Shown here one piece after another: positions 915 through 59,202 of a stretch of DNA of 64,000 bases. Under the pieces are notes generated by a model. The model saw only the letters and a list, made by a program, of their open reading frames with translations, was not told the DNA's origin and ran no database searches. This DNA comes from an uncultured bacterium. GTDB lineage: Bacteria > Bacillota_I > Bacilli_A > RF39 > UBA660. Made by a program: the position numbers and the translations under genes. The DNA lies in assembly GCA_945935525.1 (NCBI GenBank), contig CAMERI010000001.1, positions 227,548-291,547 on the forward strand, written 5' to 3'. Numbering within the stretch: position 1 is the first letter of the stretch; the number at the start of each line of letters is the position of its first letter.

Positions 915-1048
915 AATTTCACCTCTATTATTTTTCTCAAAAATGAAAATTATATGAAATTATACTTGCATTTTCACAAAAAGAGTGTATAATATAGCCC
1001 TACAAAGCAACATATTTGTTGCTAATAAAATATAGGGGGATTTTGGAA

Positions 1049-26967: not shown

Positions 26968-29900
26968 TTAATTTGTTTGTTTTCTTCTATAAAAGATTCC
27001 AGCTCCAGCAAGTCCTACGATTGATAAGATTCCACTTATTATATAGAATCCAATATTATCTCCAGTTTGTGGATTGTCAGTAGGCACTGTTACTTTTGCT
27101 ACATTAAATGTTGTAATTGCTTCTCCACCATCATTGAATACAACTTTTAAAGTATGTTCTCCAACTGATAATGTATCAACAAATTCTTTCTTTAATGTAA
27201 TTATTGTGCTTCCACTTTCTGCTGTATAATTTTTAGGATCAACTAATTCATTATCAACATATACTTTACCAGCATCAAATAATCTAAAGTCAGCATTTAT
27301 TTTAAATTTAGCTTCAGTATTTTTAGTAATTATATATTTTTGATTAGCTCCTTCAGTTACTTCATAAACTATTTTTTCAACTACAACTTCTAAATTGATA
27401 TTAGATGTTATATTTGTAAGTTTTAAAGTATCTCCAACCATATCAGCAGTTTTATCAGTTCCATCGACTAGAACTTTAACTAACTTATATCCACTATTAG
27501 CAGTTATAGTAAATTCTTTATCTTCACCATAACTTACTGCAACTACTCCGTTTGGAGTAATAGTAGCACCATCTACATCTTTAACAGTTACAGTAAATGG
27601 TATTTTCTTATAACTTACAATAACCTTTTTTTCTTCATTTATAGTAAGTACTATTGTATTACCAGTTACAGTAGTTTCTACTGTATTTACTAATACTTTA
27701 TCAATCATATATCCAGTATTTGGTGTAAATGTTATTTCAACTTTAGTTCCTTCAACAGCACCTATTATACTTGGTGTAATTGTTCCATTTCCACCATCAA
27801 CTGATGTTATTACATTAAACGTATTTTTAACTACAACCTCAATATCAATATCAGTTATTGTTTTATAGTTTATAGTATCAACTGGAGTATATGTAGCTTT
27901 ATAAATATGTGTTCCAACTGTTAATACTATACTTGCATCATTCCAAGTAAATCCACTAGGTAAAGTCACATCATTTAACGTTTTTCCTATTACACTAGTA
28001 AGACCAGTTGGTACAGTATAGTTTGGTGTTGCTTGAGTGATTGACCAATTTAAAACTAAATCTGTAGTTGTACTATCTTTCCACTCATAATTATTTTTAT
28101 CTTTTAAGGATACTGTAATGCTATAATTTCCAACATTAGTAGCCTTAATATCGCCAGAAAAACTCATCTTATTTAAATCAAAATTACTATCTTGTGGAAC
28201 TATTTCATCACCAGTATATTCAAAAGTATCTTTAACTAAAGTTACTTTTTCAAGTTGTACTTTTTTAATAGTAAATGCTACACTAAATGTTCCAGTGTAA
28301 TTTGCATTTGTATCAGGAACTTTATATGTTACTGTATAAGTACCAGCATTTGTAGGTGCTGTAGCACTATTATAATTTGTAGAACCAGTTCCTTTATATA
28401 ATACTTCTAAATCACTAACATTTACTGTTCCATCATTAACACTAATTGTTCCTGTTGGCATTTTAGGATTTCCATCATAAGTAAATGTTTCATTATTAGA
28501 AAGTCCTGAAATATTTACATCTGTTTTATTTACAACATGAACTGTAAATTCTTTTGATGTTTCTTTCCATTCAGGAGTAGCATCTCCACCAAGATCCATT
28601 TTTGCTGCTGTAACAGTCATTACAACATCACCTTCAGTAGCTCCTGCTACATATTCTTCATTTGTAGCAAGATATGTAAGTGCTGTTCCTGATTTAATAG
28701 TAAAATCAATATTTCCTACATTTCCAGTTACTGATTGTTCTAAATAATCTTTTGTTATAGAACCATTAACTCTTACATATTGATCTGCAATTGCTAAAGG
28801 TTGTTCTGCACTTGTTACTGTTAGTTTTCCAAATGTATGAGTTCCAAATGTATAATTATCAGTAACATCATCAGAACCTCTCATAACTTTAACAGTAAAC
28901 TCATTATCAGATGTTCCTACATATGTTTGACTTCCAGTAAATTCTACTACTACCTCATCACCAGCTACAGTTTCACCTGTTACTGTTTTATTATTATTAG
29001 TTAGTGGATTACCATCATATGTTTTATTAGCATTTTCAGATGTTACAGTAATACTACTATCTTTTTTGTTTACAGTTAATTTACCAGCAGCTTTTACTTT
29101 ATTAGAATAACAATCACTTACATCAACACCCTCAGCATTTGTTATAGTAATTTTTCCAATTGTATTATTTTCAAGAGCTGTTTCGTTAACATCTCTTACT
29201 TTACCAGTAATTTCTGCAGTAACTTTATCACCATTAGGTAATGTTTTATCAGCTACTGCACTACCATTATTTGCCCATAAAACATCATAAGCATTTTTTG
29301 TATGGTATGTTCCATCATAAGTAAATGTTTCATCATAACTTTTTACTTTTACTTCTGTAGTAATTGGTTTAATTTCAAAATCAACACTACTTTCACTTTC
29401 AATATAGTTTATACTTGTGATTTTTACATTCACTTTATATTTACCTACTAATATAGGTAATGTATTTCCTACATTTTCATAATTTCCAGGAGTTGTTTCT
29501 TTTGAATAATAAATTTCATATTCATTACTTCCTAAAGATTCTAATCCTGTTATACTTAAAGTTGGATTACTATTATATATCCAATCACTTGGATAATCAA
29601 TTACTACTCCATCATAATTTTTCTTTTCAACTTTTAATGTAACTGTTGCTGTATATGTTTTACCATCCATAGCTTCTACAGTAATTGTAGCTGTATAAGT
29701 ACCAACAGCAAGACCAGCTTTTGCTTTTACTTTAAAATCAGTATTTGTTGCACCAGCACTAACTGTTGGTTGTGTAGTTCCAATGATTTCAAATTTTCCA
29801 GGTTCAGACACTGTTACATTTTTAATTTGTAATTCATTATCACCAACATTTTTAATTGATATACCATTAAGACTAGGTGTTTCCTTATAAGTTTCATTTA

Positions 29901-30804
29901 TTTCTACATTATTTACTTCAAAGCCATTAACTTTTTTTATAATAATGTAAGGATTTTCTCCTCCTGTTGAATAAAAATCTTCAACTAAAGTATTTCTATC
30001 TTTTTCAGTTAAAACTGGAGCCCCTGTTGTATAAGGTAGTTCTTGAAAGTATGCTTTAGAATTAGGATTAATTACATTATCTAATTTCATTTTTCCTAAT
30101 TTATTACTTCCTAATTTGCTTGCAAGTCCCATCACTTTCAATGACTCAAAATTAAAATTGAATTTAATATCTGAATCTGAATCATCACTAGTGTGAAAAA
30201 GAGACTTCTGATCACCGACTTTAAATACAGCGTCTTTTACTTTTACATCAACAGTAATATTTCTACCATTTGTATAGTATTTATTAGAAAAGAAAGAAAA
30301 GTAACTATTAGTTGAACTAATCATTTCATAATACCCACCATCAATAGTTAGTCCAAATTTTTTTATTTCCTCATCATGAATAACATCATAAGTAGTAAAA
30401 TTAATGCTTTTTTTTGTAAGAATCTTACCAGTTTTACTACTACTACTATCCTTAATAGTTAACTTACTATTAAAGTTATAATAGTAATCGTTAATTGCTT
30501 CATCATAATCAGACATTCCATAATTAAATGAAAGACCTTCGGAACCTGTATCTAATGTTTGCCCATTTAATTCAAGAGTAATGTCATTAACAACATAAAA
30601 ATTTAGGTACTTTGTTAAAGTAATATCTTTTGTTAATTTAATTTCATTTATCTCAGAATCAAATCCTTTTGATGCATTAATTAGCTCTTCCTCATTCTCT
30701 ACCGTGATTGTTTTTGCATTTACATTAGTTAACCCTACAGCAAAGATTGCTACTAATGTAAATAATATCGTAGTTAATTTTTTAACTACATTTTTCTTTT
30801 CCAT
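26968..30804 (-). CDS. Large cell-wall-anchored surface protein (Ig-like repeats, Listeria-Bacteroides/Flg_new-type repeats, NPQTG sorting signal)
   Basis: Signal peptide; many beta-rich repeats; two C-terminal repeats with 'TPNTGYMIDKVLVN'/'ANSGYKLVKVLVDG'; C-terminus NPQTGD, then a hydrophobic stretch and RRKQTN. Confidence 0.7.
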   Translation of the reverse strand: MEKKNVVKKLTTILFTLVAIFAVGLTNVNAKTITVENEEELINASKGFDSEINEIKLTKDITLTKYLNFYVVNDITLELNGQTLDTGSEGLSFNYGMSDYDEAINDYYYNFNSKLTIKDSSSSKTGKILTKKSINFTTYDVIHDEEIKKFGLTIDGGYYEMISSTNSYFSFFSNKYYTNGRNITVDVKVKDAVFKVGDQKSLFHTSDDSDSDIKFNFNFESLKVMGLASKLGSNKLGKMKLDNVINPNSKAYFQELPYTTGAPVLTEKDRNTLVEDFYSTGGENPYIIIKKVNGFEVNNVEINETYKETPSLNGISIKNVGDNELQIKNVTVSEPGKFEIIGTTQPTVSAGATNTDFKVKAKAGLAVGTYTATITVEAMDGKTYTATVTLKVEKKNYDGVVIDYPSDWIYNSNPTLSITGLESLGSNEYEIYYSKETTPGNYENVGNTLPILVGKYKVNVKITSINYIESESSVDFEIKPITTEVKVKSYDETFTYDGTYHTKNAYDVLWANNGSAVADKTLPNGDKVTAEITGKVRDVNETALENNTIGKITITNAEGVDVSDCYSNKVKAAGKLTVNKKDSSITVTSENANKTYDGNPLTNNNKTVTGETVAGDEVVVEFTGSQTYVGTSDNEFTVKVMRGSDDVTDNYTFGTHTFGKLTVTSAEQPLAIADQYVRVNGSITKDYLEQSVTGNVGNIDFTIKSGTALTYLATNEEYVAGATEGDVVMTVTAAKMDLGGDATPEWKETSKEFTVHVVNKTDVNISGLSNNETFTYDGNPKMPTGTISVNDGTVNVSDLEVLYKGTGSTNYNSATAPTNAGTYTVTYKVPDTNANYTGTFSVAFTIKKVQLEKVTLVKDTFEYTGDEIVPQDSNFDLNKMSFSGDIKATNVGNYSITVSLKDKNNYEWKDSTTTDLVLNWSITQATPNYTVPTGLTSVIGKTLNDVTLPSGFTWNDASIVLTVGTHIYKATYTPVDTINYKTITDIDIEVVVKNTFNVITSVDGGNGTITPSIIGAVEGTKVEITFTPNTGYMIDKVLVNTVETTVTGNTIVLTINEEKKVIVSYKKIPFTVTVKDVDGATITPNGVVAVSYGEDKEFTITANSGYKLVKVLVDGTDKTADMVGDTLKLTNITSNINLEVVVEKIVYEVTEGANQKYIITKNTEAKFKINADFRLFDAGKVYVDNELVDPKNYTAESGSTIITLKKEFVDTLSVGEHTLKVVFNDGGEAITTFNVAKVTVPTDNPQTGDNIGFYIISGILSIVGLAGAGIFYRRKQTN

Positions 30805-39985: not shown

Positions 39986-42178
39986 TTAACTTTTTCCATC
40001 CTTCTTCTCATCTTTAATCTCTTCTTTATACTTTGGTTCAAGTCCTACTACTAGTTTAGTACCTTTGCTAAGCACCTCACCTATCTTTATAGAACTTGTT
40101 TTAGCATATCCATATCCTTCAAAAGAAACATCTATTCCAGTAAGACTAGCAAATGTAGTTACATCACTCCTACTCCAGTCTTTTATATTTATCATTTTAT
40201 AATTAGTATCATTTGTTACTAAGAATATTTTATTTCCTGCATTTAATTTAGTATTAGCACTAGGATATTGTTTTATTATTTTAGTTCCTTCTCCTATAAC
40301 TATGGGTTTCATAGAAGATGCTTCTAAATTCGTTTTAACTATATTAGTATCTAAGTTTATATAACTCTTTGTAGTATATGTACCAGTTTCTTCTACTTCT
40401 TTATTTCCTACTATATTTAAGTAAGTTCCAGCATCTTTTATTAATCCTTTAACAGCGTTCTTTAAGTATTTAGCATCAGTTACTTTACTAACAGCAGCAT
40501 ATATTATTATCTCTGGGTCATCTCCTGGAAATAAAGCAGCAAAACTTCTTATATAGTTTCTGTTTCCCTTTAAGTATCCACCACTCCTAGAAGCAATTTG
40601 AGCTGTACCTGTTTTACCTATAACGTCATATCCAGGTACATTATATCCACCACCAGTAGATATCTTACATCCATCTTGTACAACTCCACGCATTATATCT
40701 TTAATCTTTGTTACTGTTTCAGTACTAGCTACCTTAGCTACCTCAGTCCTTTTATTTTCAAGAACTATTTCACCAGTTTCACCACTAACTATTTTAGATA
40801 CCAAATATGGTTTAATCATAACTCCATCATTAGCTATACTAGTAAGAGCCTGTACCATTTGAATAGCACTAACTGTCATACCTTGACCATAAGATGCAGC
40901 AGCAACTTCAGTATTATATCTAAAATTAACTGTACCTTTACTCTCATTAGGAAGTGAAATACCAGTTTTCTTACCAAAACCAAGCGAAGTATAATAATCT
41001 TTTAACTTAGCTCTACCAAGATCCATAGCCAAGTTAACAGCAGCTATATTCGAAGAAGCCATAAATCCTTCATCAAATGTAATCATACCCCATCCTCTAT
41101 TATTCCAATCTTTAATATTAGCTTCATCTATTTTAATAGTTCCACTCTTATATTTTTTACTTCCATCATATATTCCATTTTCCATAGCTGCCATAAAACT
41201 AAATATTTTCATTGTTGAACCCGGTTCATACTCATAAGCAACAAATGGATCATAATATGATTTAATTTCTAAAGTATTGTTATTAAAACTAGGACTTGAT
41301 GCAACACTTAATATTTCACCAGTCTTAGCATTTACTACAGATATAGTAGCCCATTCAGGTTTACCTTCTTCTAAAGTATTCATTGCTTGTTCAGTGAACA
41401 TCTGAATATTATCATCTATTGTTAAATATAAATCATCCCCACTAATACTTTTTTTCTCTACAGCTGGTGTAGTTGTTATTTGATATCCATATAAATCAGA
41501 TTGATATTGTTTATAACCATCAGTACCAGTAAGTTCATCATTATAATAAAGTTCTAATCCCATTTCACCAACATACTGGTTATTATCATTATTTTTAGCA
41601 TACCCAAGAGTATATGACAAGAAGTCTCCATTAGGATAATATCTCTTAGTACTAGCAATAAAGTCAATACCTGGTAAATCCAAGTCTTCTATTTGATCTT
41701 TTAATAACTCTGTAATGCCACGACCACCAGGACCTAATTCTACTTGATATGGTACTTTTTCTATACATTCAGTATTATCTTCATTACAAGATTTGATCTT
41801 AGTATTTAATAAAGATAAAATTCTTTCTTTAGTCATATTTATTAAAGGACTTAAAAGTTCAGCAGTTTTTTCTTTATCTACAACATGATATGGTCTTTTT
41901 TCATCCTTTGTTCTACTTGGATCTAAATAAGCTATTACTGTATAACTATTTACATCTTTTGCTAAAACTTCTCCTTTAGCAGAATAAATAGTACCACGTT
42001 TAGCAGTTAAAGTCTTTTTTCTTGTGTCACGATTACTAGCAAACTCAGCAAGTGGTTTATCATCTACTTTAACATTTCCAAGTCCTATCCATAACAATTT
42101 AAAAATTATTGCAGCAAAAATAAAAACAACAATAATTATGAATACTGCATTTATCTTAATTACTCTTGTTTTCTTCAT
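39986..42178 (-). CDS. pbpB: Class B penicillin-binding protein (PBP2B/FtsI-like transpeptidase)
   Basis: N-terminal TM, dimerisation domain, 'EPGSTMK', 'SSN' and 'KTGT' motifs, C-terminal PASTA-like region. Confidence 0.8.
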   Translation of the reverse strand: MKKTRVIKINAVFIIIVVFIFAAIIFKLLWIGLGNVKVDDKPLAEFASNRDTRKKTLTAKRGTIYSAKGEVLAKDVNSYTVIAYLDPSRTKDEKRPYHVVDKEKTAELLSPLINMTKERILSLLNTKIKSCNEDNTECIEKVPYQVELGPGGRGITELLKDQIEDLDLPGIDFIASTKRYYPNGDFLSYTLGYAKNNDNNQYVGEMGLELYYNDELTGTDGYKQYQSDLYGYQITTTPAVEKKSISGDDLYLTIDDNIQMFTEQAMNTLEEGKPEWATISVVNAKTGEILSVASSPSFNNNTLEIKSYYDPFVAYEYEPGSTMKIFSFMAAMENGIYDGSKKYKSGTIKIDEANIKDWNNRGWGMITFDEGFMASSNIAAVNLAMDLGRAKLKDYYTSLGFGKKTGISLPNESKGTVNFRYNTEVAAASYGQGMTVSAIQMVQALTSIANDGVMIKPYLVSKIVSGETGEIVLENKRTEVAKVASTETVTKIKDIMRGVVQDGCKISTGGGYNVPGYDVIGKTGTAQIASRSGGYLKGNRNYIRSFAALFPGDDPEIIIYAAVSKVTDAKYLKNAVKGLIKDAGTYLNIVGNKEVEETGTYTTKSYINLDTNIVKTNLEASSMKPIVIGEGTKIIKQYPSANTKLNAGNKIFLVTNDTNYKMINIKDWSRSDVTTFASLTGIDVSFEGYGYAKTSSIKIGEVLSKGTKLVVGLEPKYKEEIKDEKKDGKS

Positions 42179-49034: not shown

Positions 49035-50243
49035 TTATCTTCTTAAAGTCATACCTCCACTTGTTGGTTGACTTTCCTCTATTAAATTTCTTCTATAACT
49101 TATTAAATAGCTTATTCTCTTTTCAACATCTTCTTTTTGACTAATAATTGAGTCAACTGTTTTTTTACTAGCACCATCAGCTATTGATTTAATATATAGT
49201 CTTTCAAGTCTAGTTTTTTCATTCATTAAGTTTTGAATTTCATTATCAAGTGAGTCAACTGTAACAGCTAAATCAATGTTTCTAGATGTTCTATTATTTT
49301 GAACAACAGGTTTATTTGTAACTAATGATTTACGTCTAATATTTAATTCATTATATTCAGTTGCCACTCTTTGTGCTTTTCTAAGAACAGTATTTAATTC
49401 TGTTTGTGATGCACCATTAGCTTTTAAACTATTATATTGTCTTTTAAGTCTATTATGTTCATCTTTTAATAAAGCCATATTTGTATCTATTTCTTTAATA
49501 ATTCTTTCATTATGACTAATAGTATTTTCTTTTCTAGTATTAGTAGCAGTTCTTTCTGTTACTACAGGTGTTGAAGTTTTAGTTTGTTTACTTTTTAATT
49601 CTTTACTTTGTTTTTCTAAATCATTATATTCATCAACAAGTTCATTTATTCTTAAAGCAACTTTTCTCTTTTCACTAGAATTTTCTAAAGAATTATATTT
49701 TTTTATTAAACTATTATACTCACTTCTAACAGAACTAATTCTTTCAGATAATTCGGTTTCTGTATAAGTTTTATCTTTAGAAAGATTTTCTTTAGATTCA
49801 GCCTTTTTATTTTTTCTTTCTTCAAGCATTTTATCTTTTTCAGTTTTAACGTTTTCTTTAGTCTTATTAAACCAGTTAGATATTTTATTAAGTTTATTTT
49901 TAATTTTCTCCTTAGATGATTCATTTTTAGCTTCTTGACGTTTCCATTCATTTAAGAAATATTTACCGTTATTTTTTAATGACTTAATTGGATGAAATAA
50001 ACTAATTAATTTTGAATTTAAAATCATAACAATAGGATGAATTATATTATAAACCGGTATAAATATTTTAATTATATTTTTAGCAAAGAATGCAATTTTA
50101 GCATCTTTAGATTTCTTTTTAAATTTCTCGTAATAATCTTTATCCTCAGTTTTAGCATACCATAAAGCAAGTAAACTATTTGTTGTATTAACAATACTAC
50201 TAGCAACAATTCCCCAAATATATAATGCAAGAATCCATGACAT
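49035..50243 (-). CDS. Membrane-anchored coiled-coil protein with three internal repeats of about 60 aa
   Basis: N-terminal TM helices, then a Lys/Glu-rich coiled coil with recurring '...EYN(S/E)L...' modules. Confidence 0.45.
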   Translation of the reverse strand: MSWILALYIWGIVASSIVNTTNSLLALWYAKTEDKDYYEKFKKKSKDAKIAFFAKNIIKIFIPVYNIIHPIVMILNSKLISLFHPIKSLKNNGKYFLNEWKRQEAKNESSKEKIKNKLNKISNWFNKTKENVKTEKDKMLEERKNKKAESKENLSKDKTYTETELSERISSVRSEYNSLIKKYNSLENSSEKRKVALRINELVDEYNDLEKQSKELKSKQTKTSTPVVTERTATNTRKENTISHNERIIKEIDTNMALLKDEHNRLKRQYNSLKANGASQTELNTVLRKAQRVATEYNELNIRRKSLVTNKPVVQNNRTSRNIDLAVTVDSLDNEIQNLMNEKTRLERLYIKSIADGASKKTVDSIISQKEDVEKRISYLISYRRNLIEESQPTSGGMTLRR

Positions 50244-50299: not shown

Positions 50300-50899
50300 T
50301 TATTTCTCAATTATAGGTTTAACTATCTCTAAAGTTTTAATATAGTTATATCTTCCAAGTACTCTTTCTTGAGGCATCTCTACTCTTTCAATTATAGGAG
50401 AATAACCTAACTTATGAGACCAAGTACCATCCATATTTTGTCTTATAAAATGAAAATCAAAAGATGCTTTAAAAAAAGCAATTTTATATCCTCCATGATG
50501 AGTATCCCCAAGCATAGTGCATTCATAAGAGTCTATACCAAGCAATTCCAAATCCTTTTGCAAATCATATAAATTAGTATTTAAATCATTTGAACTATAA
50601 AGGTCATCAGTCATAAACCCTAAGTTATGAGTTAAATTATCTATTTCTTTATATTCATATACACTTGCAAATATTTCTGGAGTTATTAATCCCAAAGCAT
50701 ACATATAACAATTAGAATGATTATATTTGCCTTCCTTCTCATCAAAAAGAGGCTTATTAGTTCCAAGTTTAACACACAATTTTAGATATTCTCTATATAA
50801 TTCATACACATCTAAAGATGTTAAATTTCTAATATTTGATATTAATCTAACATAAACAAATACAAGTTCTCTATACGTTTTTAAATATTCTAGCGTCAT
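50300..50899 (-). CDS. Uncharacterised cytosolic protein, paralogue A (conserved Cys/His motifs)
   Basis: Shares 'NCYxYALG', 'GYK..F...F.DFHF.RQN.DG.WSHK.GY.PII' and 'Y..T.EIVKP' with the upstream gene. Confidence 0.5.
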   Translation of the reverse strand: MTLEYLKTYRELVFVYVRLISNIRNLTSLDVYELYREYLKLCVKLGTNKPLFDEKEGKYNHSNCYMYALGLITPEIFASVYEYKEIDNLTHNLGFMTDDLYSSNDLNTNLYDLQKDLELLGIDSYECTMLGDTHHGGYKIAFFKASFDFHFIRQNMDGTWSHKLGYSPIIERVEMPQERVLGRYNYIKTLEIVKPIIEK

Positions 50900-51486
50900 T
50901 TAAGCCTCCTAACAAGAGGTTTAACTATTTCATATGTATGGATAATATCATAATCTGAAACATCAAAAGGATTACATTTAGTTATTATAGGTCTATATCC
51001 TACTTTGTGTGACCAACTTCCATCACTATTTTGTCTTGTAAAATGAAAATCTTTAAAACCTCTATATAATGAAACTTTATATCCATTATGTAAATTTGGC
51101 TTATCTACTTCACTATCAAAACATTTTATTCTTAAGTAACCCATATCAGTTTCAAATCCAAACATTAAATCATTAGGATCTGATACATCAATAATATTGT
51201 TACTTATAAAACCTATATTATGTGTCATCATCTTCTTTTTAAATCTAGCATACACATCACTGAATACATCATGAGTTGTAAATCCTAACGCATAACAATA
51301 ACAATTACCATATCTATATTTATCCTTATCAGCTTTAAATGATGGACTATTAGTACTAACTCTACTTTCTAAAAATAAATATCTTTTATATAATTCTTTA
51401 ACTTCATCTTCACTAATACTAGAAAAATTATCTTTAATGAAATTAATTATATTATCCATCTCTCTCCTAATATCAAATTCATTCAT
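50896..51486 (-). CDS. Uncharacterised cytosolic protein, paralogue B (conserved Cys/His motifs)
   Basis: Tandem paralogue of 50300-50899 with a 4-nt overlap. Confidence 0.5.
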   Translation of the reverse strand: MNEFDIRREMDNIINFIKDNFSSISEDEVKELYKRYLFLESRVSTNSPSFKADKDKYRYGNCYCYALGFTTHDVFSDVYARFKKKMMTHNIGFISNNIIDVSDPNDLMFGFETDMGYLRIKCFDSEVDKPNLHNGYKVSLYRGFKDFHFTRQNSDGSWSHKVGYRPIITKCNPFDVSDYDIIHTYEIVKPLVRRLK

Positions 51487-51731: not shown

Positions 51732-51777
51732 TGGTGTCCTCGGCACGATTCGAACGTGTGACCGACGGCTTAGAAGG
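51732..51777 (-). repeat. Partial copy of the 3' half of tRNA-Arg (att-site direct repeat of the tRNA at 61218-61294)
   Basis: tggtgtcctcggcacgattcgaacgtgtgaccgacggcttagaagg aligns with the 3' half of the intact tRNA-Arg. The core gaccgacggcttagaagg is identical, and the T-stem changes are compensatory. The expected 5' half is absent. A terminator hairpin (aagcctaaatataaggctt) follows on the minus strand. Confidence 0.7.
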
Positions 51778-51913
51778 TTTTTGATAAAACTCTAGCCATC
51801 GATTTATTACACATCGTTTTTTTGCCTTAAACACTGGGGAAAATAAACATTATTCTTTCTAAAGTTATGTTTTAACAATTAACGGGTGCCGTAAAATGGT
51901 GCCATACCAATTT

Positions 51914-52516
51914 TTAAACACCTTTCAAAATCTTATCAAACATATCTGCACTTTGCTGTTTACTAGCCTCATAAGCATGTGTATATATGTTCATTGTAGT
52001 ATTTGTATTTGAATGTCCTAGTCTTAAACTAACAGCTTTAATATTAACACCATTATCTATTAACAAGCTAGTGCAAGTATGTCTTAATTCATGAAAAGTA
52101 ATTTTAGGTAGATCATATTTTTTAATAATTTGAGAAAGTATATCTGTACAAGTATCTGGATGAATATGAGTACCATATTTTGATGTAAAAATTCTGTTTT
52201 CATTTTTTCACATTCTTCCAAGTTTCTTTTTATAATCATCTTGCCAAGCTTTGTACTCTTTTAATAAATCAATACATACTTGACTGATTATAATCTTTCT
52301 ATTGGAATATGTATTTTTAGCTTTTGATTCATCTACTATTCCATTTACTACTTTTAATCCATTATCAATTAGAATAGTATTATTTTCAAAATCTACATCA
52401 TTCCATTTAAGAGCACATATTTCACTTCTTCTTGCCCCACTATCAATTGCAAGTGTTATTAATGTTCTATATTTAATATTTTCATTTTTCAAGTGATTGT
52501 TCAAATGTGTATCCAT
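51914..52516 (-). pseudogene. int: Tyrosine integrase, N-terminally truncated and frameshifted
   Basis: 102-aa ORF carrying the box I Arg ('SGARRSEICALKW'). The C-terminal catalytic part ('FHELRHTCTSLLIDNGVNIKAVSLRLGHSNTNTTMNIYTHAY') is in a different frame, ending at 51914. No N-terminal arm/core-binding domain is present. Confidence 0.7.
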
Positions 52517-52862
52517 ATAATATATTATCTAATGATCCACTTCCATTAATATCTGAATTATATTCTACAAATTCATTTATATAATCTATTATTTCATTTT
52601 TACGTTCTAATGATGGTGTCTCTAAATAAAATCTTTCTATTAAATTACCATTCATAATTATTACTCCTTTTTTATTTATATGACATTAGGTTGTATCTAT
52701 TATATCATAAAATATTTCTTTTTAGATAGTCTAAAATCATACTGTGCTTATATAAAATTTATTATTAAACCAAACTAATTCAACATAAAAAGAGCAATAA
52801 AATATTTTACTGCTCAAAATATTATAAATTACTTTTTATATATTCTATTTAATCAACAAATA

Positions 52863-54938
52863 TTATTCATCGTAATGAGCTTTAGCAGGAGAAAATTCAT
52901 ACTTTTCACATTTTTCACCATTTAGTGTATATACCTTAGAACAAGTATACTTTTTTATTGCTTTAGGAAAACTATTTTTATAACATTTGGTACCACTTGC
53001 AACAAATCCTTCTTCACATACATACATTCCAACAGCATCAGTAGTTATTGTGGCGTAACACTTTGTACCCTTAAGTACAGTATCATCAGTGCATATATAT
53101 TTACTTGTGGCTGCTATTCCAGTTGTTTTAGCACACTGATTATTAACAGCTATATATCCACTTGGACAAATATATTTTTTCGTAGCAGCTATTGTTGTAT
53201 TAGAAGAAATAACACAATTTCCTTTTCCATCTGATGTTCCTTGAGAACAATAATATGTTTTATTAGCAAAGGTAGTGTAATGGCATAATCCATCGGTATA
53301 ATCATATCTTCCTTGTGCACACCAGTAATAATATGGACTTGCAGTGTGTTCACAAGTTTGGCCTTTTAATGTTCCAGAACTACAAGAATATTTGATAGAA
53401 GCAGCAACTATACTTGGTCTATTTTTTATGCAATTAGTTCCAGATAAATTATAAGAAGAATCAGGACATGAATATTTAACTTCAGCAGAAATATTAGAAA
53501 TGGTAAAACATTGATTTCCAGATGAAATATATCCTTTAGGACAAGAATATACTACAACTGCATCTGCAGATTCAACTTTTTCACATTTAGTATCTTTTAG
53601 TTTAAAACCATCTGCACATTTGTATACAAATTTTGAATCTCTAATATCATTACTTACGCAAATATCACCACTTACACTATAACCATCTTTACAGGTATAT
53701 GTAATTTTAGCATCTACAGAATCTATTGTTTTTTGACATTTATTGTCATCATTCAAAGTATATCCATTTTCACAGTAATAATATCCTTTAACACAGGTTC
53801 CATTTTTATTTATATACCCACTATCACATTTTTTTAAAGAAAAATATCCTTTAAGTATAAGTAAAAATAATAAACAAAGAATTAAAAACAACATTACTAT
53901 TTTTAAAACGAAATTTTCTGCAAAAAAATTTCTTATTTTAATAGCTATTGAACTATTCTTTATTAAATCAAAATAACTATCTTTAATATCATTATTCTTA
54001 ATAGCATCATTATCATATATTCCAATAGTAACAGATGTCAAATCAGATGAAAAATTAATTTTTTTACTAGTATTAGAATATATTTTTATTTTTTCTAAAT
54101 CTTTTCTCATTTTATTAGCACTATCATATCTATTATTATGATTAAATGAACATGCTTTAGTCAAGATACTCATAATTTCATTAGATATTCCATCTATATT
54201 TGGAATTTTTTCACCCGACATTCTAATATCAAATGCCTTCTTTTCATCAATATCAAAACTTACAAATGGAAGATTTCCATTAATCAATTTATACATAACA
54301 AGTCCTAATGAATATATATCAGATGTTGTATTTGGATTTTCACCATTATAAACTTCAGGAGAAATATAATCTAATGTACCAAATCCATTTAAATTATTAT
54401 TTGATGTTGCTATTCCAAAATCTCCAAGTTTATAATTACCTTTTTCATCAATAAATATATTACTAGGCTTAATGTCGTTATGTATAATATTTTTTGAAGA
54501 ACAATATTCTAAAGCTTTACATATATCACTGCCAAGTTTAATTACATCAGTAATTGTAACTTCCTTTTCAGAAAAATATTTAAGTATATCAGTTGCATAT
54601 TCCATAAATATATATATATCATATCCATTTTCTTCTTTTTTACTCTCCTGAAAAAAGTCATAATACTTAATAATATGATCATTATTATCAAGATTTTTCA
54701 TTATTTCAATTTCTTTTTTAATATTTTCAATGATATGCAAATAATAAACATTTATATCATCTTCACTTCTTATGTATCCTTCGGTAAAAAGAAATCTAAT
54801 TTCCTCATCATTTTTTGGTAAACTTATATATTTAACAGCACATACATCTCCATTATTATTTACTGCTCTATATACTTCAGAAAAACCTCCTTCACCTATT
54901 TTTTCATAAATTTTCCAATTTTTAATTTCTTTCTTCAT
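52863..54938 (-). CDS. Hanks-type Ser/Thr protein kinase with a TM segment and an extracellular Cys-pair repeat domain
   Basis: GEGGFSEV...AVK...HNDIKPSNIFID...DFGIAT...YISPEV; TM around residues 340-360; at least 10 repeats of Y-x-C-x2-G-[YF]-x-[LV]-x-G-x2-C. Confidence 0.8.
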   Translation of the reverse strand: MKKEIKNWKIYEKIGEGGFSEVYRAVNNNGDVCAVKYISLPKNDEEIRFLFTEGYIRSEDDINVYYLHIIENIKKEIEIMKNLDNNDHIIKYYDFFQESKKEENGYDIYIFMEYATDILKYFSEKEVTITDVIKLGSDICKALEYCSSKNIIHNDIKPSNIFIDEKGNYKLGDFGIATSNNNLNGFGTLDYISPEVYNGENPNTTSDIYSLGLVMYKLINGNLPFVSFDIDEKKAFDIRMSGEKIPNIDGISNEIMSILTKACSFNHNNRYDSANKMRKDLEKIKIYSNTSKKINFSSDLTSVTIGIYDNDAIKNNDIKDSYFDLIKNSSIAIKIRNFFAENFVLKIVMLFLILCLLFLLILKGYFSLKKCDSGYINKNGTCVKGYYYCENGYTLNDDNKCQKTIDSVDAKITYTCKDGYSVSGDICVSNDIRDSKFVYKCADGFKLKDTKCEKVESADAVVVYSCPKGYISSGNQCFTISNISAEVKYSCPDSSYNLSGTNCIKNRPSIVAASIKYSCSSGTLKGQTCEHTASPYYYWCAQGRYDYTDGLCHYTTFANKTYYCSQGTSDGKGNCVISSNTTIAATKKYICPSGYIAVNNQCAKTTGIAATSKYICTDDTVLKGTKCYATITTDAVGMYVCEEGFVASGTKCYKNSFPKAIKKYTCSKVYTLNGEKCEKYEFSPAKAHYDE

Positions 54939-57388
54939 TAATATCTACCACTTTCCAACTGTCTTTTCAAGATAACAAAACTAATAATAATAAAAGCAAC
55001 CGTCATAATAATAATTATAGTTCCATCATAAACTAAATGATTAATCGTAAAAGAGTAATAACTTTCTACTTCTCTAATGTATCCAGGAAAAACTTCTTGT
55101 ATAGAACTAATTAAACTGTTTAAATCATTAATAGTTCCAAGTGCTTCTACAGACCATCTGCATAATATAAAATTAGATATCTTACCTATAACACCATTTA
55201 ATGGAAATAGTATTCCAGAAAATAATAATTGAGGTACCAAAAGTAATGTAGGCATTGTTGAAGCAGAAGATGAATCTTTAGCCAATATAGAAACAAAAAG
55301 TCCCATGGAAGAAGCTGAAAATATAGTTAATATAATTATAAAAATAGTTTCTATATACCAGCTAAAAATAATACCATTACTTGGAACATCAACAAATAAA
55401 ACAAATGCAGAAATCAATAGAAAAGATTGAATTACAGAAAGTAAAAATAGAAAAAGTAGTTTTGAGCACAAATAAGATGATATACGTAAATCAGACATAT
55501 ATTCCTTTTCTAAAATTACTCGTTCTTTACAAACCTCTTGAATTGCATTTAAAAGTCCTAACCATATAGCAGCTGTAACTAAAGAAAATAAAATTGCTTT
55601 GGTTTCTTCATAAGAATAAAATATATTTTTAGTAACAACAATAGATAATAAAAATGCAATTAAAGGAACTTGTGCAAAAAGTAGTATTAATTGTTGATGA
55701 TTATTAATTAATATTTTTAATCTTCTTCTAAACAATGTATATAATTGTTTAGAAAATGATTTAGAATTCTTCTTTTTATTAATATTTGTAATTTCATTTT
55801 CAATATTTTTATTATTAGTATTAAATTCATCTATGTTATTTTTGTTATTATTTTTTGATTCATTAAATTCATTTAACCATTTATCTGGGTCATTTGAGAT
55901 TAAATTATAAATATCGACAAAATCTTTAACTTTAAAGAATTCTAAAGCTTCATCAGGTTTTCCATCAAAGCATAATTTACCACCATATCCAAAAAATACA
56001 ACTTTATCACATAAATTTAGATTTAAAGTATTATGAGTAACTAATATTATTGTTTTACCACTATCAGCCATTTTTCTTAATGTTTTCATTATACTTCTTT
56101 CTGTTCCTGGGTCAAGACCACTTGTAGGTTCATCAAGAAAAAATAATTTAGGGTCTGCAATTAATTCAACAGCTATACATGCTCTTTTTTTTTGTCCACC
56201 AGAAAGGTTTCTAATCATAACATCTTTTTTATCGGATAATTCGACTATCTCTAATACATTATTAATTCTATTAATTTTTTCTTGATAAGTAACATCATCA
56301 GGCATTCTAAGATTAGCTGAGTATTTAAGCATATCAATTAAAGTTAAATCGTTAAAAATTATATTTTCTTGTGGTACATAACCAATCAAATTTTTTAAAG
56401 CAGAATAATTATTAAACAGGTCACTACCATTAACCAAAACTTTACCACTTGTAGGTTTTGAAATACCACTGATACACTTTAAAAATGTAGATTTACCAGC
56501 TCCGCTTCCTCCAATAAATGCGATAAATTGACCAGGAGTTGCCGAAAAATTAATATGTTGTGCAATATCTTTCTTTTTTCCTTTAACTTTTATAGTTTTA
56601 ACTATATCTATAGCATCAAGTCTAACGCCTTCATCATATAACTGATATAAAATACTATTTTTATTATATATAAGCTTAATGTTATTAATAATTATTACAT
56701 CTTTGTCTTTAAGAAGCTTTTGTCCTACTAATATATTATTATTTAGTATTATACTACCTTTATTATTATAAGCACTTATATAATGTCCTTTATCTAGTTT
56801 TGTGATTTTAGCATGTTTAAGTAACACAGATATACGATTGAAAACAATATCACAATCTTCACCTCTACCAATCAATACATTTTTTTTATCACGTAAAGGA
56901 AAGCTAACCCACTTATTTGCTTTTTCTCCAATTGTAATAACCATTAGTATTCCTATACTTAGAGGATTATTAGGATTATCAATTTTGATGAAATCACCGT
57001 CATTTAAATAGCTATCTTTTGCTTTAACACTATTAACAAAAATACCATTTTTGCTATTTTCATCAAAAACTCTTATGGAACCATCATCAATAATAAAGTA
57101 TCCATGATGCTGTGATACTAATAAAGATGGTAAAACGATGTCATTATCTTCTGAACGCCCAAAAGTAATTTTATTACTTTCATAATCATTAAGAGAAATA
57201 TTTTTTATATAATTATCTCCAATTATAGTAATAATATATTTTATTTTCTTTTTTGTATTTTTATTTAAGTCGTTATTCTTTTCAGTATCATTAATATATG
57301 AAATAAAATTATCATCTTTTTTATTAATTTTAATCTCGGTATTAAAATCATTAATAAATTTACCTTTAGTATTTATCCCTTCATTCAC
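54938..57388 (-). CDS. ABC transporter (ABCG/ABC-2 type) with two N-terminal FHA domains (Rv1747-like architecture)
   Basis: Two FHA domains ('ITFGRSEDNDIVLP...', 'VLIGRGEDCDIVFN...'), then an NBD (GGSGAGKST, LSGGQKKR, LFFLDEPTSGLD), then a 6-TM permease. It overlaps the kinase gene by 1 nt. Confidence 0.8.
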   Translation of the reverse strand: MNEGINTKGKFINDFNTEIKINKKDDNFISYINDTEKNNDLNKNTKKKIKYIITIIGDNYIKNISLNDYESNKITFGRSEDNDIVLPSLLVSQHHGYFIIDDGSIRVFDENSKNGIFVNSVKAKDSYLNDGDFIKIDNPNNPLSIGILMVITIGEKANKWVSFPLRDKKNVLIGRGEDCDIVFNRISVLLKHAKITKLDKGHYISAYNNKGSIILNNNILVGQKLLKDKDVIIINNIKLIYNKNSILYQLYDEGVRLDAIDIVKTIKVKGKKKDIAQHINFSATPGQFIAFIGGSGAGKSTFLKCISGISKPTSGKVLVNGSDLFNNYSALKNLIGYVPQENIIFNDLTLIDMLKYSANLRMPDDVTYQEKINRINNVLEIVELSDKKDVMIRNLSGGQKKRACIAVELIADPKLFFLDEPTSGLDPGTERSIMKTLRKMADSGKTIILVTHNTLNLNLCDKVVFFGYGGKLCFDGKPDEALEFFKVKDFVDIYNLISNDPDKWLNEFNESKNNNKNNIDEFNTNNKNIENEITNINKKKNSKSFSKQLYTLFRRRLKILINNHQQLILLFAQVPLIAFLLSIVVTKNIFYSYEETKAILFSLVTAAIWLGLLNAIQEVCKERVILEKEYMSDLRISSYLCSKLLFLFLLSVIQSFLLISAFVLFVDVPSNGIIFSWYIETIFIIILTIFSASSMGLFVSILAKDSSSASTMPTLLLVPQLLFSGILFPLNGVIGKISNFILCRWSVEALGTINDLNSLISSIQEVFPGYIREVESYYSFTINHLVYDGTIIIIMTVAFIIISFVILKRQLESGRY

Positions 57389-57465: not shown

Positions 57466-57498
57466 ACCTAATAAAAAAGAATCCTAAATGGATTCTTA
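57466..57498 (-). terminator. Rho-independent terminator after the hydrolase gene
   Basis: aagaatcc-taaa-tggattctt hairpin followed on the minus strand by a T-run. Confidence 0.5.
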
Positions 57499-57510: not shown

Positions 57511-59202
57511 TTATTTAATAATGCTTTCAAGTGGTTTACCTGAATTTTCAAAAGCTGAACATTGCATATTTGCAACACAATTTGCAAAATTTCCTATTAA
57601 ATTAGTATATTCAGTTTTATTTGAACCTACTACAATGAAAGCATGTGGTGCTTTTGCAACATTCCATCTATAAAGTAATTTTGCATTGCCAATATTAGCT
57701 GCAATAACATCTGCATTACTAGGTGGAACCATAGTATCATTATCTCCATGAATTATAATAACTTTACTTCCTTTTGGAAATTGTCTTCCTGAAGAAAATG
57801 CATTAGCATATTTGTCGTAATTTTCTTCTGTTAATCCAATTCCTCCAAATTTAATTAATAGTTTGGCAATAATATCTTCAAGTAATGATGAAGAATCTTT
57901 ATTAAAAGAATTATTTACTTTATTAATAGAGTAGTTATCAATAATATAAGTTTGTTTACTAATAGTATATTTATTCCACCAATCAATAATTTCATTTTTA
58001 TCTATTTCTGGAATTTGTATTTGGTTTTTATCATTTACGTTTGGATAATTGTCTTTTTTATTTTCTATATATTCATTTAACTTATCACTAAATCCTTTTA
58101 AATATTCATTAAGTTCAGTTCCATTAGTAATATCAATTTCATTAATTTCAGAAAAATCTCCAATATTTAAATTTTTAATTTGATTTTGAAGTTCATTCAT
58201 AAAGTTATTTACATCAATACCAAATCCACCAAGAAGTGCAGTAGACTGACTACTATCTCCTAAAGAAAGCATACCGGTAATAATTCCTGTCATAGAAGCA
58301 TATCCACAATCATCTACAAATCCTTTTACATTTAATTCTGTTAAATTGGCTGAATATACTCCCCCAGAAGCTGAAGCAATATCTGGATTTGTTGCAAGTT
58401 GAAGTGTTGTAGCACTACCTAAAGATACACCATGTACTACAATAGTTTCTGGTTTACTATTAACACCATATCTCGCATAATTAGTATTTAAATCTTTGAT
58501 CCAGTCATAAGTATCTAAACTTTCTAAGTAACCCATAGCTACTTTACCTTCGCTTTTTCCAGCACCTCTTAAATCCGGAGCAATAACATTATATCCTTGT
58601 GAAGTGTACATTTCTCCTAAAGTACTATATATTTGTTTTCCGGTCATATTTACACCATGTAATAATACTGCCCATTTATTAGAATTAGCATCACTTATAT
58701 AAACATTAGCGCTTAAACCATTATCACTTAGGCAATAATCTCCACCGATTGTTTCACATACTGTATATGATTTTAACGTTAAAGTTTTACTAACAATTGA
58801 TGAATTACCACCAATATTAGTATTTAATAAAGAATCCAATATGCTAATTATACTATTTAAAAATTTCCCAGTATCATTTTCATTATTTTCTATAACACTA
58901 TTAGTAAGTAAAGTGTTTGCATAACCAGTACCATCACCATCATCATAAGTTTTTCCATATTCTTGAACTTTTTCCAAGAAATCAACCTTAGCCTCTTCAA
59001 CATCCACGCTAGAATCCATATTGCTTGCATATTCTTTTAAGCCAGATAAATATTCTTTGTATTGTTTTGTCTCGTAAGTTTCTATAGTTTTTTCATTAGA
59101 AAAATCAAATAACTTAAAAACAACAAAAACTATGGCAATAACAACTACTATAATTCCTATCCACAAAACCCACTTATTACTTTTATTTTTTTCTTCACTC
59201 AT
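57511..59202 (-). CDS. Membrane-anchored alpha/beta-hydrolase (serine esterase/lipase-like)
   Basis: N-terminal TM; 'HGVSLGS' GxSxG nucleophile elbow; C-terminal 'HGDNDTMVP' and 'APHAF', which are candidate Asp and His of the triad. Confidence 0.6.
   Translation of the reverse strand: MSEEKNKSNKWVLWIGIIVVVIAIVFVVFKLFDFSNEKTIETYETKQYKEYLSGLKEYASNMDSSVDVEEAKVDFLEKVQEYGKTYDDGDGTGYANTLLTNSVIENNENDTGKFLNSIISILDSLLNTNIGGNSSIVSKTLTLKSYTVCETIGGDYCLSDNGLSANVYISDANSNKWAVLLHGVNMTGKQIYSTLGEMYTSQGYNVIAPDLRGAGKSEGKVAMGYLESLDTYDWIKDLNTNYARYGVNSKPETIVVHGVSLGSATTLQLATNPDIASASGGVYSANLTELNVKGFVDDCGYASMTGIITGMLSLGDSSQSTALLGGFGIDVNNFMNELQNQIKNLNIGDFSEINEIDITNGTELNEYLKGFSDKLNEYIENKKDNYPNVNDKNQIQIPEIDKNEIIDWWNKYTISKQTYIIDNYSINKVNNSFNKDSSSLLEDIIAKLLIKFGGIGLTEENYDKYANAFSSGRQFPKGSKVIIIHGDNDTMVPPSNADVIAANIGNAKLLYRWNVAKAPHAFIVVGSNKTEYTNLIGNFANCVANMQCSAFENSGKPLESIIK

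What the first reader, a model, noticed from the sequence alone, without database searches (positions are those of the whole stretch)
52863..53900. Kinase ectodomain made of ten or more tandem two-cysteine repeats instead of PASTA domains
Downstream of the TM helix, the kinase carries about 330 aa of repeats with the pattern Y-x-C-x2-G-[YF]-x-[LV]-x-G-x2-C, for example 'YSCPKGYISSGNQCF', 'YICPSGYIAVNNQCA' and 'YVCEEGFVASGTKCY'. The regular Cys pairs about 10 residues apart suggest an array of disulfide-stapled beta-hairpins. Bacterial eSTKs usually sense through PASTA or PQQ/beta-propeller domains, so this sensor domain looks unusual. It resembles small eukaryote-like Cys-knot/EGF-like modules.
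Basis: seen in the sequence. Interest (0 to 1): 0.55.

Follow-up and report, generated by a model that had tools for sequence, protein, structure and literature searches.

The report
Kinase with cysteine-hairpin repeat ectodomain
A gut Firmicute membrane kinase carries, outside the cell, a rod of 13 small two-cysteine beta-hairpin modules that no curated database names. The same modules occur in the surface part of some plasmid TraN mating proteins, and the kinase sits in an operon with a phospho-regulated ABC exporter, as in the mycobacterial PknF-Rv1747 pair.

Summary
ORF 52863-54938 (-) encodes a 691-aa Hanks kinase (Pkinase aa 9-274, one TM helix at about aa 343-365). Its 326-aa ectodomain holds 26 Cys as 13 pairs with a period of about 25 aa.

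No Pfam or NCBIfam model passes threshold on the ectodomain. There are only sub-threshold, motif-level echoes of Sushi and cEGF. AlphaFold2 with 18 orthologues gives an all-beta model (pLDDT 89). Foldseek finds no significant PDB match.

All 16 full-length orthologous ectodomains have an even Cys count (26, 28 or 30), and 12 population variants change no Cys. This fits one disulfide per module.

The repeat is not eukaryote-derived. An exhaustive search finds 662 cluster representatives, including about 14 full-length kinases with this architecture, TraN proteins, RHS toxins and lipoproteins. hhalign links the ectodomain to the N-terminal region of an annotated E. coli plasmid TraN (98.6% probability).

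In 5 of 5 lineages a 2xFHA-ABC-2 exporter lies directly upstream. In the window its stop overlaps the kinase start (TAATG). The best solved match of its FHA region is Rv1747.

Best reading: a receptor kinase of PknF/Rv1747 logic with an undescribed disulfide-hairpin sensor or stalk. It is a new variant of a known kind. The ligand is unknown.

The parts
52863..54938 (-). Receptor Ser/Thr kinase gene, 691 aa plus TAA stop
   Evidence: ORF listing. The same exact protein occurs in 95 collection blocks and in a 195-member 90% cluster.
54117..54914 (-). Hanks-type kinase domain, aa 9-274. Motifs present: GEGGFS, CAVK, HNDIKPSN (non-RD), DFG, SPE
   Evidence: Pkinase E=1.1e-46. Motifs read. Closest solved structures are PknB and StkP.
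53913..54116 (-). Cytoplasmic juxtamembrane linker, aa 275-342
   Evidence: Lies between the Pkinase match and the hydrophobic segment. No family hit.
53844..53912 (-). Single transmembrane helix, about aa 343-365
   Evidence: Hydrophobic stretch FVLKIVMLFLILCLLFLLILKGY.
52866..53843 (-). Ectodomain, aa 366-691: 13 tandem two-Cys modules, from Cys371 (nt 53828) to Cys677 (nt 52908)
   Evidence: Cys map, statistics, orthologue alignment, AF2 pLDDT 89.3 and all-beta, homology to the TraN N-terminal region.
54938..57388 (-). 2xFHA + ABC ATPase + ABC-2 permease exporter, 816 aa. FHA1 is nt 56981-57169, FHA2 about 56672-56878, NBD 56120-56560, ABC-2 TMD 55166-55747. Its TAA stop overlaps the kinase ATG by one base (TAATG).
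   Evidence: Pfam, junction sequence, coordinates. Best solved match of the FHA region is Rv1747 FHA, 6cah, E=2.3e-11. Directly upstream of the kinase in 5 of 5 lineages.
52792..52815 (-). Terminator-like hairpin plus T-run just downstream of the kinase stop
   Evidence: Consensus scan.
57477..57497 (-). Terminator-like hairpin between the hydrolase gene and the ABC gene. It makes the ABC-kinase pair a likely two-gene unit.
   Evidence: Consensus scan.
57511..59202 (-). N-terminally membrane-anchored alpha/beta-hydrolase, a recurrent upstream neighbour with a looser association
   Evidence: Hydrolase_4/Abhydrolase_1, translation with an N-terminal hydrophobic segment. Same neighbour in L006 and L007/L008.

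Best explanation
This is a single-pass receptor Hanks kinase. Its extracellular part is an extended all-beta rod of 13 modules of about 25 aa. Each module is a short strand ending in Y-x-C, followed by a tight hairpin (G-Y-x-L / x-G / x-x-C) that is probably closed by one disulfide between the two Cys. The module is an old, uncurated bacterial surface repeat, also used in the exposed N-terminal region of some TraN proteins, in RHS toxins, in lipoproteins and in N-anchored surface proteins. The kinase gene is translationally coupled to a 2xFHA-ABC-2 exporter.

The proposed mechanism follows PknF-Rv1747. Binding of an unknown extracellular ligand or surface by the rod changes kinase clustering or activity. 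The kinase then phosphorylates threonines on itself and/or on the exporter's N-terminal region. The exporter's FHA domains bind these phosphothreonines, and export of an envelope component is tuned.

Shown here: the anatomy, the conservation, the homology and the synteny. Inferred: the disulfides, the phosphotransfer to the exporter, the existence of a ligand and the direction of regulation.
For: Anatomy and statistics of the 13 Cys pairs.

The kinase catalytic motifs are intact.

About 14 full-length 50%-cluster representatives share kinase + TM + a colinear ectodomain. Conservation is position-specific: units 1-2 and 13 are the most conserved, and units 7-9 are variable with indels.

AF2 with 18 sequences gives pLDDT 89.3, with strands only and no helices.

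Cys counts are even in 16 of 16 ectodomains, and extra Cys always come in twos. There are no Cys substitutions in 12 full-length population variants, and the ectodomain changes at about the same rate as the cytoplasmic part.

Homology to TraN:
- representatives P0055 and P0060 carry F_T4SS_TraN;
- tblastn hits annotated traN genes on plasmids, E from 2e-20 to 8e-8;
- hhalign gives 98.6% probability, E=1.1e-15, over 252 columns against E. coli pKL53-S TraN residues 57-321.

Operon:
- the FHA-FHA-ABC gene is directly upstream in the window and in the loci of P0045, P0058, P0075 and P0054;
- the window has a TAATG overlap and is bracketed by terminator-like hairpins;
- the best PDB match of the FHA region is Rv1747.

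In M. tuberculosis, PknF is in an operon with Rv1747 and phosphorylates it on two threonines, which positively regulates the transporter (PMC3138270).
Against: No disulfide was measured.

pTM is only 0.40, so the overall shape of the rod is uncertain.

The host is a low-GC gut Firmicute, probably an anaerobe. Aerobic Firmicutes tend to exclude Cys from exported proteins (PMC2823432), and no disulfide oxidoreductase was looked for outside this 64-kb window.

The inter-FHA linker here is short (34 aa) and has only one Thr, so the Rv1747 phosphosites have no obvious counterpart.

Gene order is ABC then kinase. The order in M. tuberculosis was not checked here.

Several family members have degenerate Gly-rich loops or lack a plain DFG by regular expression, so some may be weak kinases.

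No ligand is indicated by any result.
Confidence: 0.55

Rival explanations
1. The rod is a contact or adhesion device rather than a small-ligand sensor. As in TraN, it binds a protein or glycan on another cell or on host mucus, and the kinase reports physical contact.
For: The only relatives with a known role are TraN mating-pair stabilisation proteins, which bind recipient outer-membrane proteins through their exposed part (PMC9246713). Homology between the ectodomain and the TraN N-terminal region is shown. The repeat also occurs in RHS toxins, a pilin-like protein and lipoproteins. The distal unit 13 is among the most conserved.
Against: In the TraN studied structurally, the receptor-binding element is a tip beta-sandwich with its own hairpin. 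Homology of that element to this repeat was not shown: there was no TraN hit in the PDB sequence search with the repeat profile. The kinase ectodomain is not hypervariable, which argues against an arms-race adhesin.
Confidence: 0.2
2. The rod is functionally equivalent to PASTA. It spans the thick wall and reads the state of peptidoglycan or a wall polymer, coupling wall status to export of an envelope precursor.
For: The organism is walled: a class B PBP with PASTA lies at 39986-42178 and an NPQTG-anchored surface protein at 26968-30804. PASTA arrays of PknB-type kinases are also linear (PMC6213207). The ABC-2 exporter and the extracytoplasmic hydrolase are envelope-type neighbours.
Against: There is no sequence or fold similarity to PASTA. 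The NF033483 score is 143 against a cut-off of 450 and comes from the kinase part only. There is no evidence of carbohydrate binding. The genome may well carry a separate PASTA kinase, which was not checked.
Confidence: 0.15
3. The 13 Cys pairs act as an extracellular redox or oxygen sensor. They are reduced and floppy in the anoxic gut, and oxidised and folded under oxidant exposure, which switches the kinase.
For: An extreme Cys load in an exported domain of a Firmicute is unusual (PMC2823432). The pairs are strictly conserved.
Against: The same repeat is used in many aerobes and Gram-negatives as a plain structural module. Nothing ties the operon to oxidative stress.
Confidence: 0.07
4. The Cys residues bind metal, and the units are zinc-ribbon-like.
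For: High Cys content alone.
Against: There are no CxxC knuckles and no conserved His. The units have single Cys 10-12 residues apart on either side of a beta-turn, and the location is extracellular.
Confidence: 0.03

Closest known systems
N-terminal Cys-rich region of some F-type TraN mating-pair stabilisation proteins (for example WP_248698483.1 of E. coli plasmid pKL53-S, and Sphingopyxis/Sphingobium plasmid TraN)
   Same: The same two-Cys module, C-P-x-G-Y-x-x-x-N/G-x-C, occurs in tandem in an exposed part of a surface protein. hhalign gives 98.6% probability over 252 columns, and tblastn gives E down to 2e-20.
   Different: TraN is an outer-membrane protein of Gram-negative conjugation systems with a C-terminal F_T4SS_TraN domain, which is absent here. 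The protein here is a Gram-positive-type membrane kinase. As far as I recall, the classical F TraN lacks this array (own knowledge, not tested).
PknF-Rv1747 of Mycobacterium tuberculosis
   Same: [quoted passage not shown] The FHA region here is most similar to Rv1747 FHA among solved structures. In M. tuberculosis the kinase phosphorylates and activates the transporter (PMC3138270).
   Different: The phylum differs. The inter-FHA linker is short and lacks the two mapped phospho-threonines. This 326-aa Cys-repeat ectodomain is a distinctive feature of the kinase here; the PknF ectodomain was not compared.
PASTA kinases (PknB/PrkC/Stk1/StkP)
   Same: A PknB-like kinase domain, a single TM helix, and a linear array of small extracellular modules.
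   Different: The modules are all-beta two-Cys hairpins, not beta3-alpha PASTA domains. There is no adjacent PP2C phosphatase, and the operon partner is an exporter.
C-terminal (C5-C6) hairpin of EGF/cEGF and the central strand-hairpin of Sushi/CCP modules
   Same: The local motif Y-x-C-x2-G-[YF]-x-L-x-G(-x2-C). The best PDB sequence hits of the repeat profile are CR1, CR2, the vaccinia complement control protein, FCGBP and fibrillin.
   Different: There are only 2 Cys per 25 aa, against 6 in EGF and 4 in the roughly 60-aa Sushi module with its conserved Trp. Scores fall below the family thresholds. Convergence on, or very remote sharing of, a stapled hairpin fits better than membership.

Membership tests
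Hanks-type Ser/Thr protein kinase (Pfam PF00069) | Kinase domain above the gathering score, with Gly-rich loop, catalytic Lys, HxD...N, DFG and [AS]PE | tested here: met
   159.8 bits against a cut-off of 31.7. GEGGFS, CAVK, HNDIKPSN, DFG and SPE are present.
PASTA kinase (NCBIfam NF033483, PknB/Stk1 family) | Extracellular PASTA repeats and a whole-protein score of at least 450 | tested here: not met
   143.2 bits, and only the kinase part is matched. Pfam finds no PASTA hit on the protein.
EGF / cEGF (PF12662 and relatives) | A module of about 40 aa with six Cys and three disulfides, scoring above the gathering score | tested here: not met
   cEGF scores 12.3 bits against 26.6, with no stretch passing on its own. 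There are two Cys per unit.
Sushi/CCP (PF00084) | A module of about 60 aa with four Cys and an invariant Trp | tested here: not met
   14.9 bits against 20.7. Only profile positions 21-38 are matched. The period is 25 aa and there is only one Trp in the whole ectodomain.
   Not listed even at E<=10 in the hmmscan of the ectodomain alone.
TraN (PF06986 F_T4SS_TraN / TIGR02750) | The conserved C-terminal TraN domain | tested here: not met
   No TraN model hits the kinase. Only the N-terminal repeat region is shared.
PknF/Rv1747-type kinase-exporter pair | Kinase gene adjacent to, and in one transcription unit with, an FHA-FHA-NBD-ABC-2 exporter | tested here: met
   Adjacent in 5 of 5 lineages. 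TAATG overlap in the window. Terminator-like sites only outside the pair. Domain order confirmed.
PknF/Rv1747-type kinase-exporter pair | The kinase phosphorylates threonines of the exporter, and these are bound by its FHA domains | not testable with these tools
   Needs in vitro phosphorylation and ITC. The mapped Rv1747 sites have no clear counterpart in the 34-aa linker.
Disulfide-stapled hairpin repeat (structural class) | The two Cys of each unit are bonded to each other | tested here: inconclusive
   Indirect support only: even Cys counts in 16 of 16, invariant pairs, and a hairpin turn between the Cys in a confident model. No coordinates or chemistry were available.

The most novel reading that the evidence does not exclude
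The ectodomain and the exposed N-terminal region of TraN are one ancient family of surface-recognition rods. On this reading the kinase is a cell-contact or surface-receptor sensor, which switches an envelope exporter when the bacterium touches a partner cell or host surface. A 13-disulfide exported domain in an anaerobic Firmicute would also imply a dedicated extracytoplasmic oxidative-folding route in this lineage.
Probability: 0.15. Interest if true: 0.7.

Novelty: new variant of a known kind. Interest (0 to 1): 0.48.

Why it matters
Ligands and sensor folds are known for very few bacterial Hanks receptor kinases, essentially PASTA and the PknD propeller. This finding defines a coherent kinase family in abundant gut Firmicutes. 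It has a new, confidently modelled ectodomain type and a built-in hypothesis for its substrate, the coupled FHA-ABC exporter.

It also brings to light a widespread repeat (662 representatives at 50% identity) that Pfam and NCBIfam do not model. The repeat makes up the exposed part of some TraN conjugation proteins, of RHS toxins and of many lipoproteins. A curated model would therefore improve annotation well beyond this gene.

The heavy use of paired Cys in an exported Firmicute protein runs against the cysteine-exclusion trend. That makes oxidative folding in these organisms a testable question.

Tried and rejected
- Pfam and NCBIfam were run on the whole protein and on the ectodomain alone. 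Only sub-threshold Sushi, cEGF and EGF_Tme5 hits appeared, with no GCC2_GCC3 and no myxococcal Cys repeat.
- phmmer of the ectodomain against PDB sequences gave only a spurious antibody CDR hit.
- The first AF2 run, with a 2-sequence alignment, was unusable (pLDDT 41.7). It was replaced by the 18-sequence run.
- Foldseek against PDB gave no hit at E<=1e-3. The top hits were long-hairpin pore formers with TM below 0.15. Against BFVD there was one weak Megaviridae protein.
- The word-indexed homologue search found only 11 proteins and missed most of the family. The exhaustive search was needed.
- The search for related loci failed with the 18-sequence alignment. With A1 it returned only the source MAG.
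- tblastn against phages gave nothing.
- Literature searches for a description of the repeat, or of such kinases, found none.
- Genetic code 4 was considered because of the 'Mollicutes' title and an in-frame TGA in the integrase remnant. It was rejected: long ORFs are intact under table 11 and contain Trp residues, so they have no in-frame TGA, and four other contigs have TGG at that site.
- A recent DNA-level tandem expansion or a hypervariable array was considered and rejected.
- Metal binding was considered and rejected on the pattern of the Cys residues.
Full report
**1. The observation**

The minus-strand ORF 52863..54938 encodes a 691-aa protein. Pfam places a protein kinase domain at aa 9-274 (E=1.1e-46).

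This region has 26 Cys (8.0% of residues), against 4 in the 340 cytoplasmic residues. They fall into 13 consecutive pairs, 10-12 residues apart, with a unit period of about 25 aa. Tyr occupies position -2 of the first Cys in 12 of 13 units and Gly occupies +3 in 10 of 13.

C-x(9-11)-C occurs 15 times, against 5.4 +/- 2.0 in residue shuffles. There is no tandem repeat at DNA level, and the units are only 16-60% identical to each other. The array is therefore ancient, not a recent expansion. In detail: there are 13 units, the central ones (6-9) being degenerate.

**2. What curated resources say**

Neither Pfam nor NCBIfam has a model that passes threshold on the ectodomain. When the ectodomain is scanned alone, only Sushi (14.9 bits against a cut-off of 20.7), EGF_Tme5 and one unrelated domain appear at E<=10. 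cEGF reaches 12.3 bits against 26.6 on the whole protein.

NCBIfam's PASTA-kinase model matches only the kinase part (143 against 450). phmmer against all PDB sequences gives only a spurious antibody hit.

A profile of 97 units finds, in the PDB, the central 'v-x-Y-S-C-x-x-G-Y-x-L-x-G' strand-hairpin of complement CCP modules. It also finds the 'C-x-x-G-F-x-L-S-G-x-x-C-V' motif of FCGBP and a fibrillin cbEGF. The EGF/Sushi resemblance is therefore real but confined to about 15 residues. The unit lacks the six Cys of EGF, and it lacks the four Cys and the Trp of Sushi. It is not a member of either family.

**3. Relatives**

The word-indexed search found only 11 proteins. The exhaustive profile search of 1.84 billion cluster representatives found 662 at E<=1e-3 and 56 at E<=1e-30.

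About 14 full-length representatives (636-778 aa) have the same architecture: kinase, one TM helix, and an ectodomain colinear over all 13 units. In the 16 full-length ectodomains aligned, the Cys count is 26 in eleven, 28 in four and 30 in one. It is always even, and extra Cys always come in twos. Among 12 full-length variants of the window protein's 90% cluster, no Cys is ever changed, and the ectodomain accumulates substitutions at about the same rate as the cytoplasmic part. Conservation is highest in the membrane-proximal units 1-2 and in the terminal unit 13. It is lowest, with indels, in units 7-9. This is the signature of a folded, functionally constrained domain whose Cys are paired.

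The other hits show that the unit is a promiscuous bacterial surface module. Among the best 150 there are:
- 17 proteins with a TraN-like C-terminal domain;
- 16 with an RHS core;
- 18 with a shared N-terminal membrane anchor;
- about 20 with a lipobox-like start;
- one prepilin-like protein.

P0055 and P0060 carry F_T4SS_TraN at E=6e-85 and 6e-64. tblastn of the window ectodomain against PLSDB hits 43 plasmids, including genes annotated traN in Sphingopyxis, Sphingobium, E. coli and Enterobacter (E from 2e-20 to 8e-8, about 90% of the query covered).

The TraN of E. coli plasmid pKL53-S has about ten C-P-x-G-Y-x-x-x-N-G-x-C units at its N-terminus. hhalign of the kinase-family profile against it gives 98.6% probability, E=1.1e-15, over 252 columns.

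There were no phage hits. Literature searches found no description of the repeat or of kinases carrying it.

**4. Structure**

With two sequences AF2 failed (pLDDT 41.7). With the 18-sequence alignment it gave pLDDT 89.3 (161 residues at 90 or above). The model has strands only, roughly three per unit: a 5-residue strand ending in Y-x-(C), a 3-residue strand (G-Y-x-L), a 2-residue turn (x-G), and a long strand beginning x-x-C that runs through the linker. pTM is 0.40, as expected for an elongated array without a fixed global shape.

Foldseek finds nothing significant in the PDB (best E=0.04, TM below 0.15) and only one weak giant-virus protein in BFVD. I could not access coordinates, so Cys-Cys distances are not verified. 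The disulfides remain an inference from parity, invariance and hairpin geometry.

**5. Context**

The gene immediately upstream (54938..57388, -) encodes two FHA domains, an ABC ATPase and an ABC-2 permease. Its TAA stop overlaps the kinase ATG (TAATG). Terminator-like hairpins lie only before the ABC gene and after the kinase.

The same exporter gene sits directly upstream of the kinase in all four other lineages examined: P0045, P0058, P0075 and P0054, the last three at about 38-44% ectodomain identity. A membrane-anchored alpha/beta-hydrolase precedes it in three lineages.

Among solved structures the FHA region is most similar to an FHA domain of M. tuberculosis Rv1747 (6cah, E=2.3e-11). 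Rv1747 is an FHA-FHA-ABC exporter encoded in an operon with the kinase PknF. PknF phosphorylates it on two threonines and thereby activates it (PMC3138270).

The window's kinase keeps all catalytic motifs. It has HND instead of HRD, so it is a non-RD kinase.

**6. Organism**

The only genome-collection match is 'MAG: Mollicutes bacterium isolate W3P13.010'. However, the window also encodes a class B PBP with a PASTA domain, a GerM-type protein and a large NPQTG-anchored surface protein. Relatives have sporulation genes next to the operon. The host is therefore a walled, low-GC (about 25%) gut Firmicute that uses the standard genetic code.

The exact protein is seen in 95 blocks of the metagenome collection, so it belongs to a common organism.

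**7. Interpretation**

The best-supported reading is a receptor kinase of PknF/Rv1747 logic. Its sensor or stalk is an undescribed array of probably disulfide-stapled beta-hairpin modules, homologous to the exposed N-terminal region of some TraN proteins.

What the rod binds is unknown. The rival readings are a contact or adhesion sensor by analogy with TraN (PMC9246713), a wall-state sensor functionally equivalent to PASTA (PMC6213207), and a redox sensor.

The redox idea draws on the observation that aerobic Firmicutes tend to exclude Cys from exported proteins (PMC2823432). That makes a 26-Cys ectodomain notable. It is also a caveat for the disulfide inference in a probable anaerobe.

**8. 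Verdict**

The finding is real and moderately interesting. It is a new variant of a known kind: a Hanks receptor kinase with a new ectodomain type, in a known kind of kinase-exporter operon. Its by-product is an uncurated, widespread surface repeat that deserves a family model.

The 'Cys-knot' and eukaryote-like framing was not, and the operon partner and the TraN link were missed.

Noticed in passing
window 51913-52515 (-), and about 51740-51790: This is the C-terminal catalytic half of a tyrosine recombinase without its N-terminal half. The window has an in-frame TGA where four metagenome contigs (L001-L004) have TGG (Trp). Just downstream lies a sequence that by eye looks like the 3' half of a tRNA ending in CCA. 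It may be an old attachment-site remnant, but neither ARAGORN nor Rfam calls it.
   Followed up: partly
window 26968-30804 (-): A 1278-aa predicted surface protein with a signal peptide and a C-terminal NPQTG sortase-type anchor. No Pfam domain at E<=1e-5.
   Followed up: partly
window 39986-42178 (-): A class B penicillin-binding protein with a PASTA domain. The organism therefore has a peptidoglycan wall, although the matching public MAG is titled 'Mollicutes bacterium'.
   Followed up: partly
window 50300-50899 and 50896-51486 (-): Two adjacent, overlapping paralogous ORFs (199 and 196 aa, sharing motifs such as GNCY-YALG and FHF-RQN-DG-WSHK). They have no Pfam match and are conserved next to the integrase remnant in other contigs.
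   Followed up: no
window 49035-50243 (-): A 402-aa ORF with an N-terminal membrane segment followed by long, repetitive coiled-coil-like Lys/Glu/Asn-rich sequence. No Pfam match.
   Followed up: no
window 1016-2527 (+) and 2717-4477 (+): Two neighbouring proteins with C-terminal MucBP (mucin-binding) domains, consistent with a gut-associated lifestyle.
   Followed up: no
window 24260-25831 (-): A large serine recombinase (Resolvase + Recombinase + Zn_ribbon_recom). It may mark a mobile element about 27 kb from the kinase operon.
   Followed up: no
P0002 (531 aa, ENA contig of 3.4 kb): This is the closest non-identical relative found by the word-indexed search. It has a DUF4886 fragment fused in front of a truncated kinase domain, which is probably an assembly chimera or a rearranged gene. 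Its ectodomain is intact and 64% identical.
   Followed up: no
P0003-like proteins (18 of the best 150 representatives, e.g. P0069, P0094, P0103): A family of N-terminally anchored low-GC Firmicute proteins (start M-Y-x-x-x-x-I-N-W-K-D-I-I-I-K...). They carry the same Cys-hairpin repeats after an uncharacterised N-terminal domain.
   Followed up: partly
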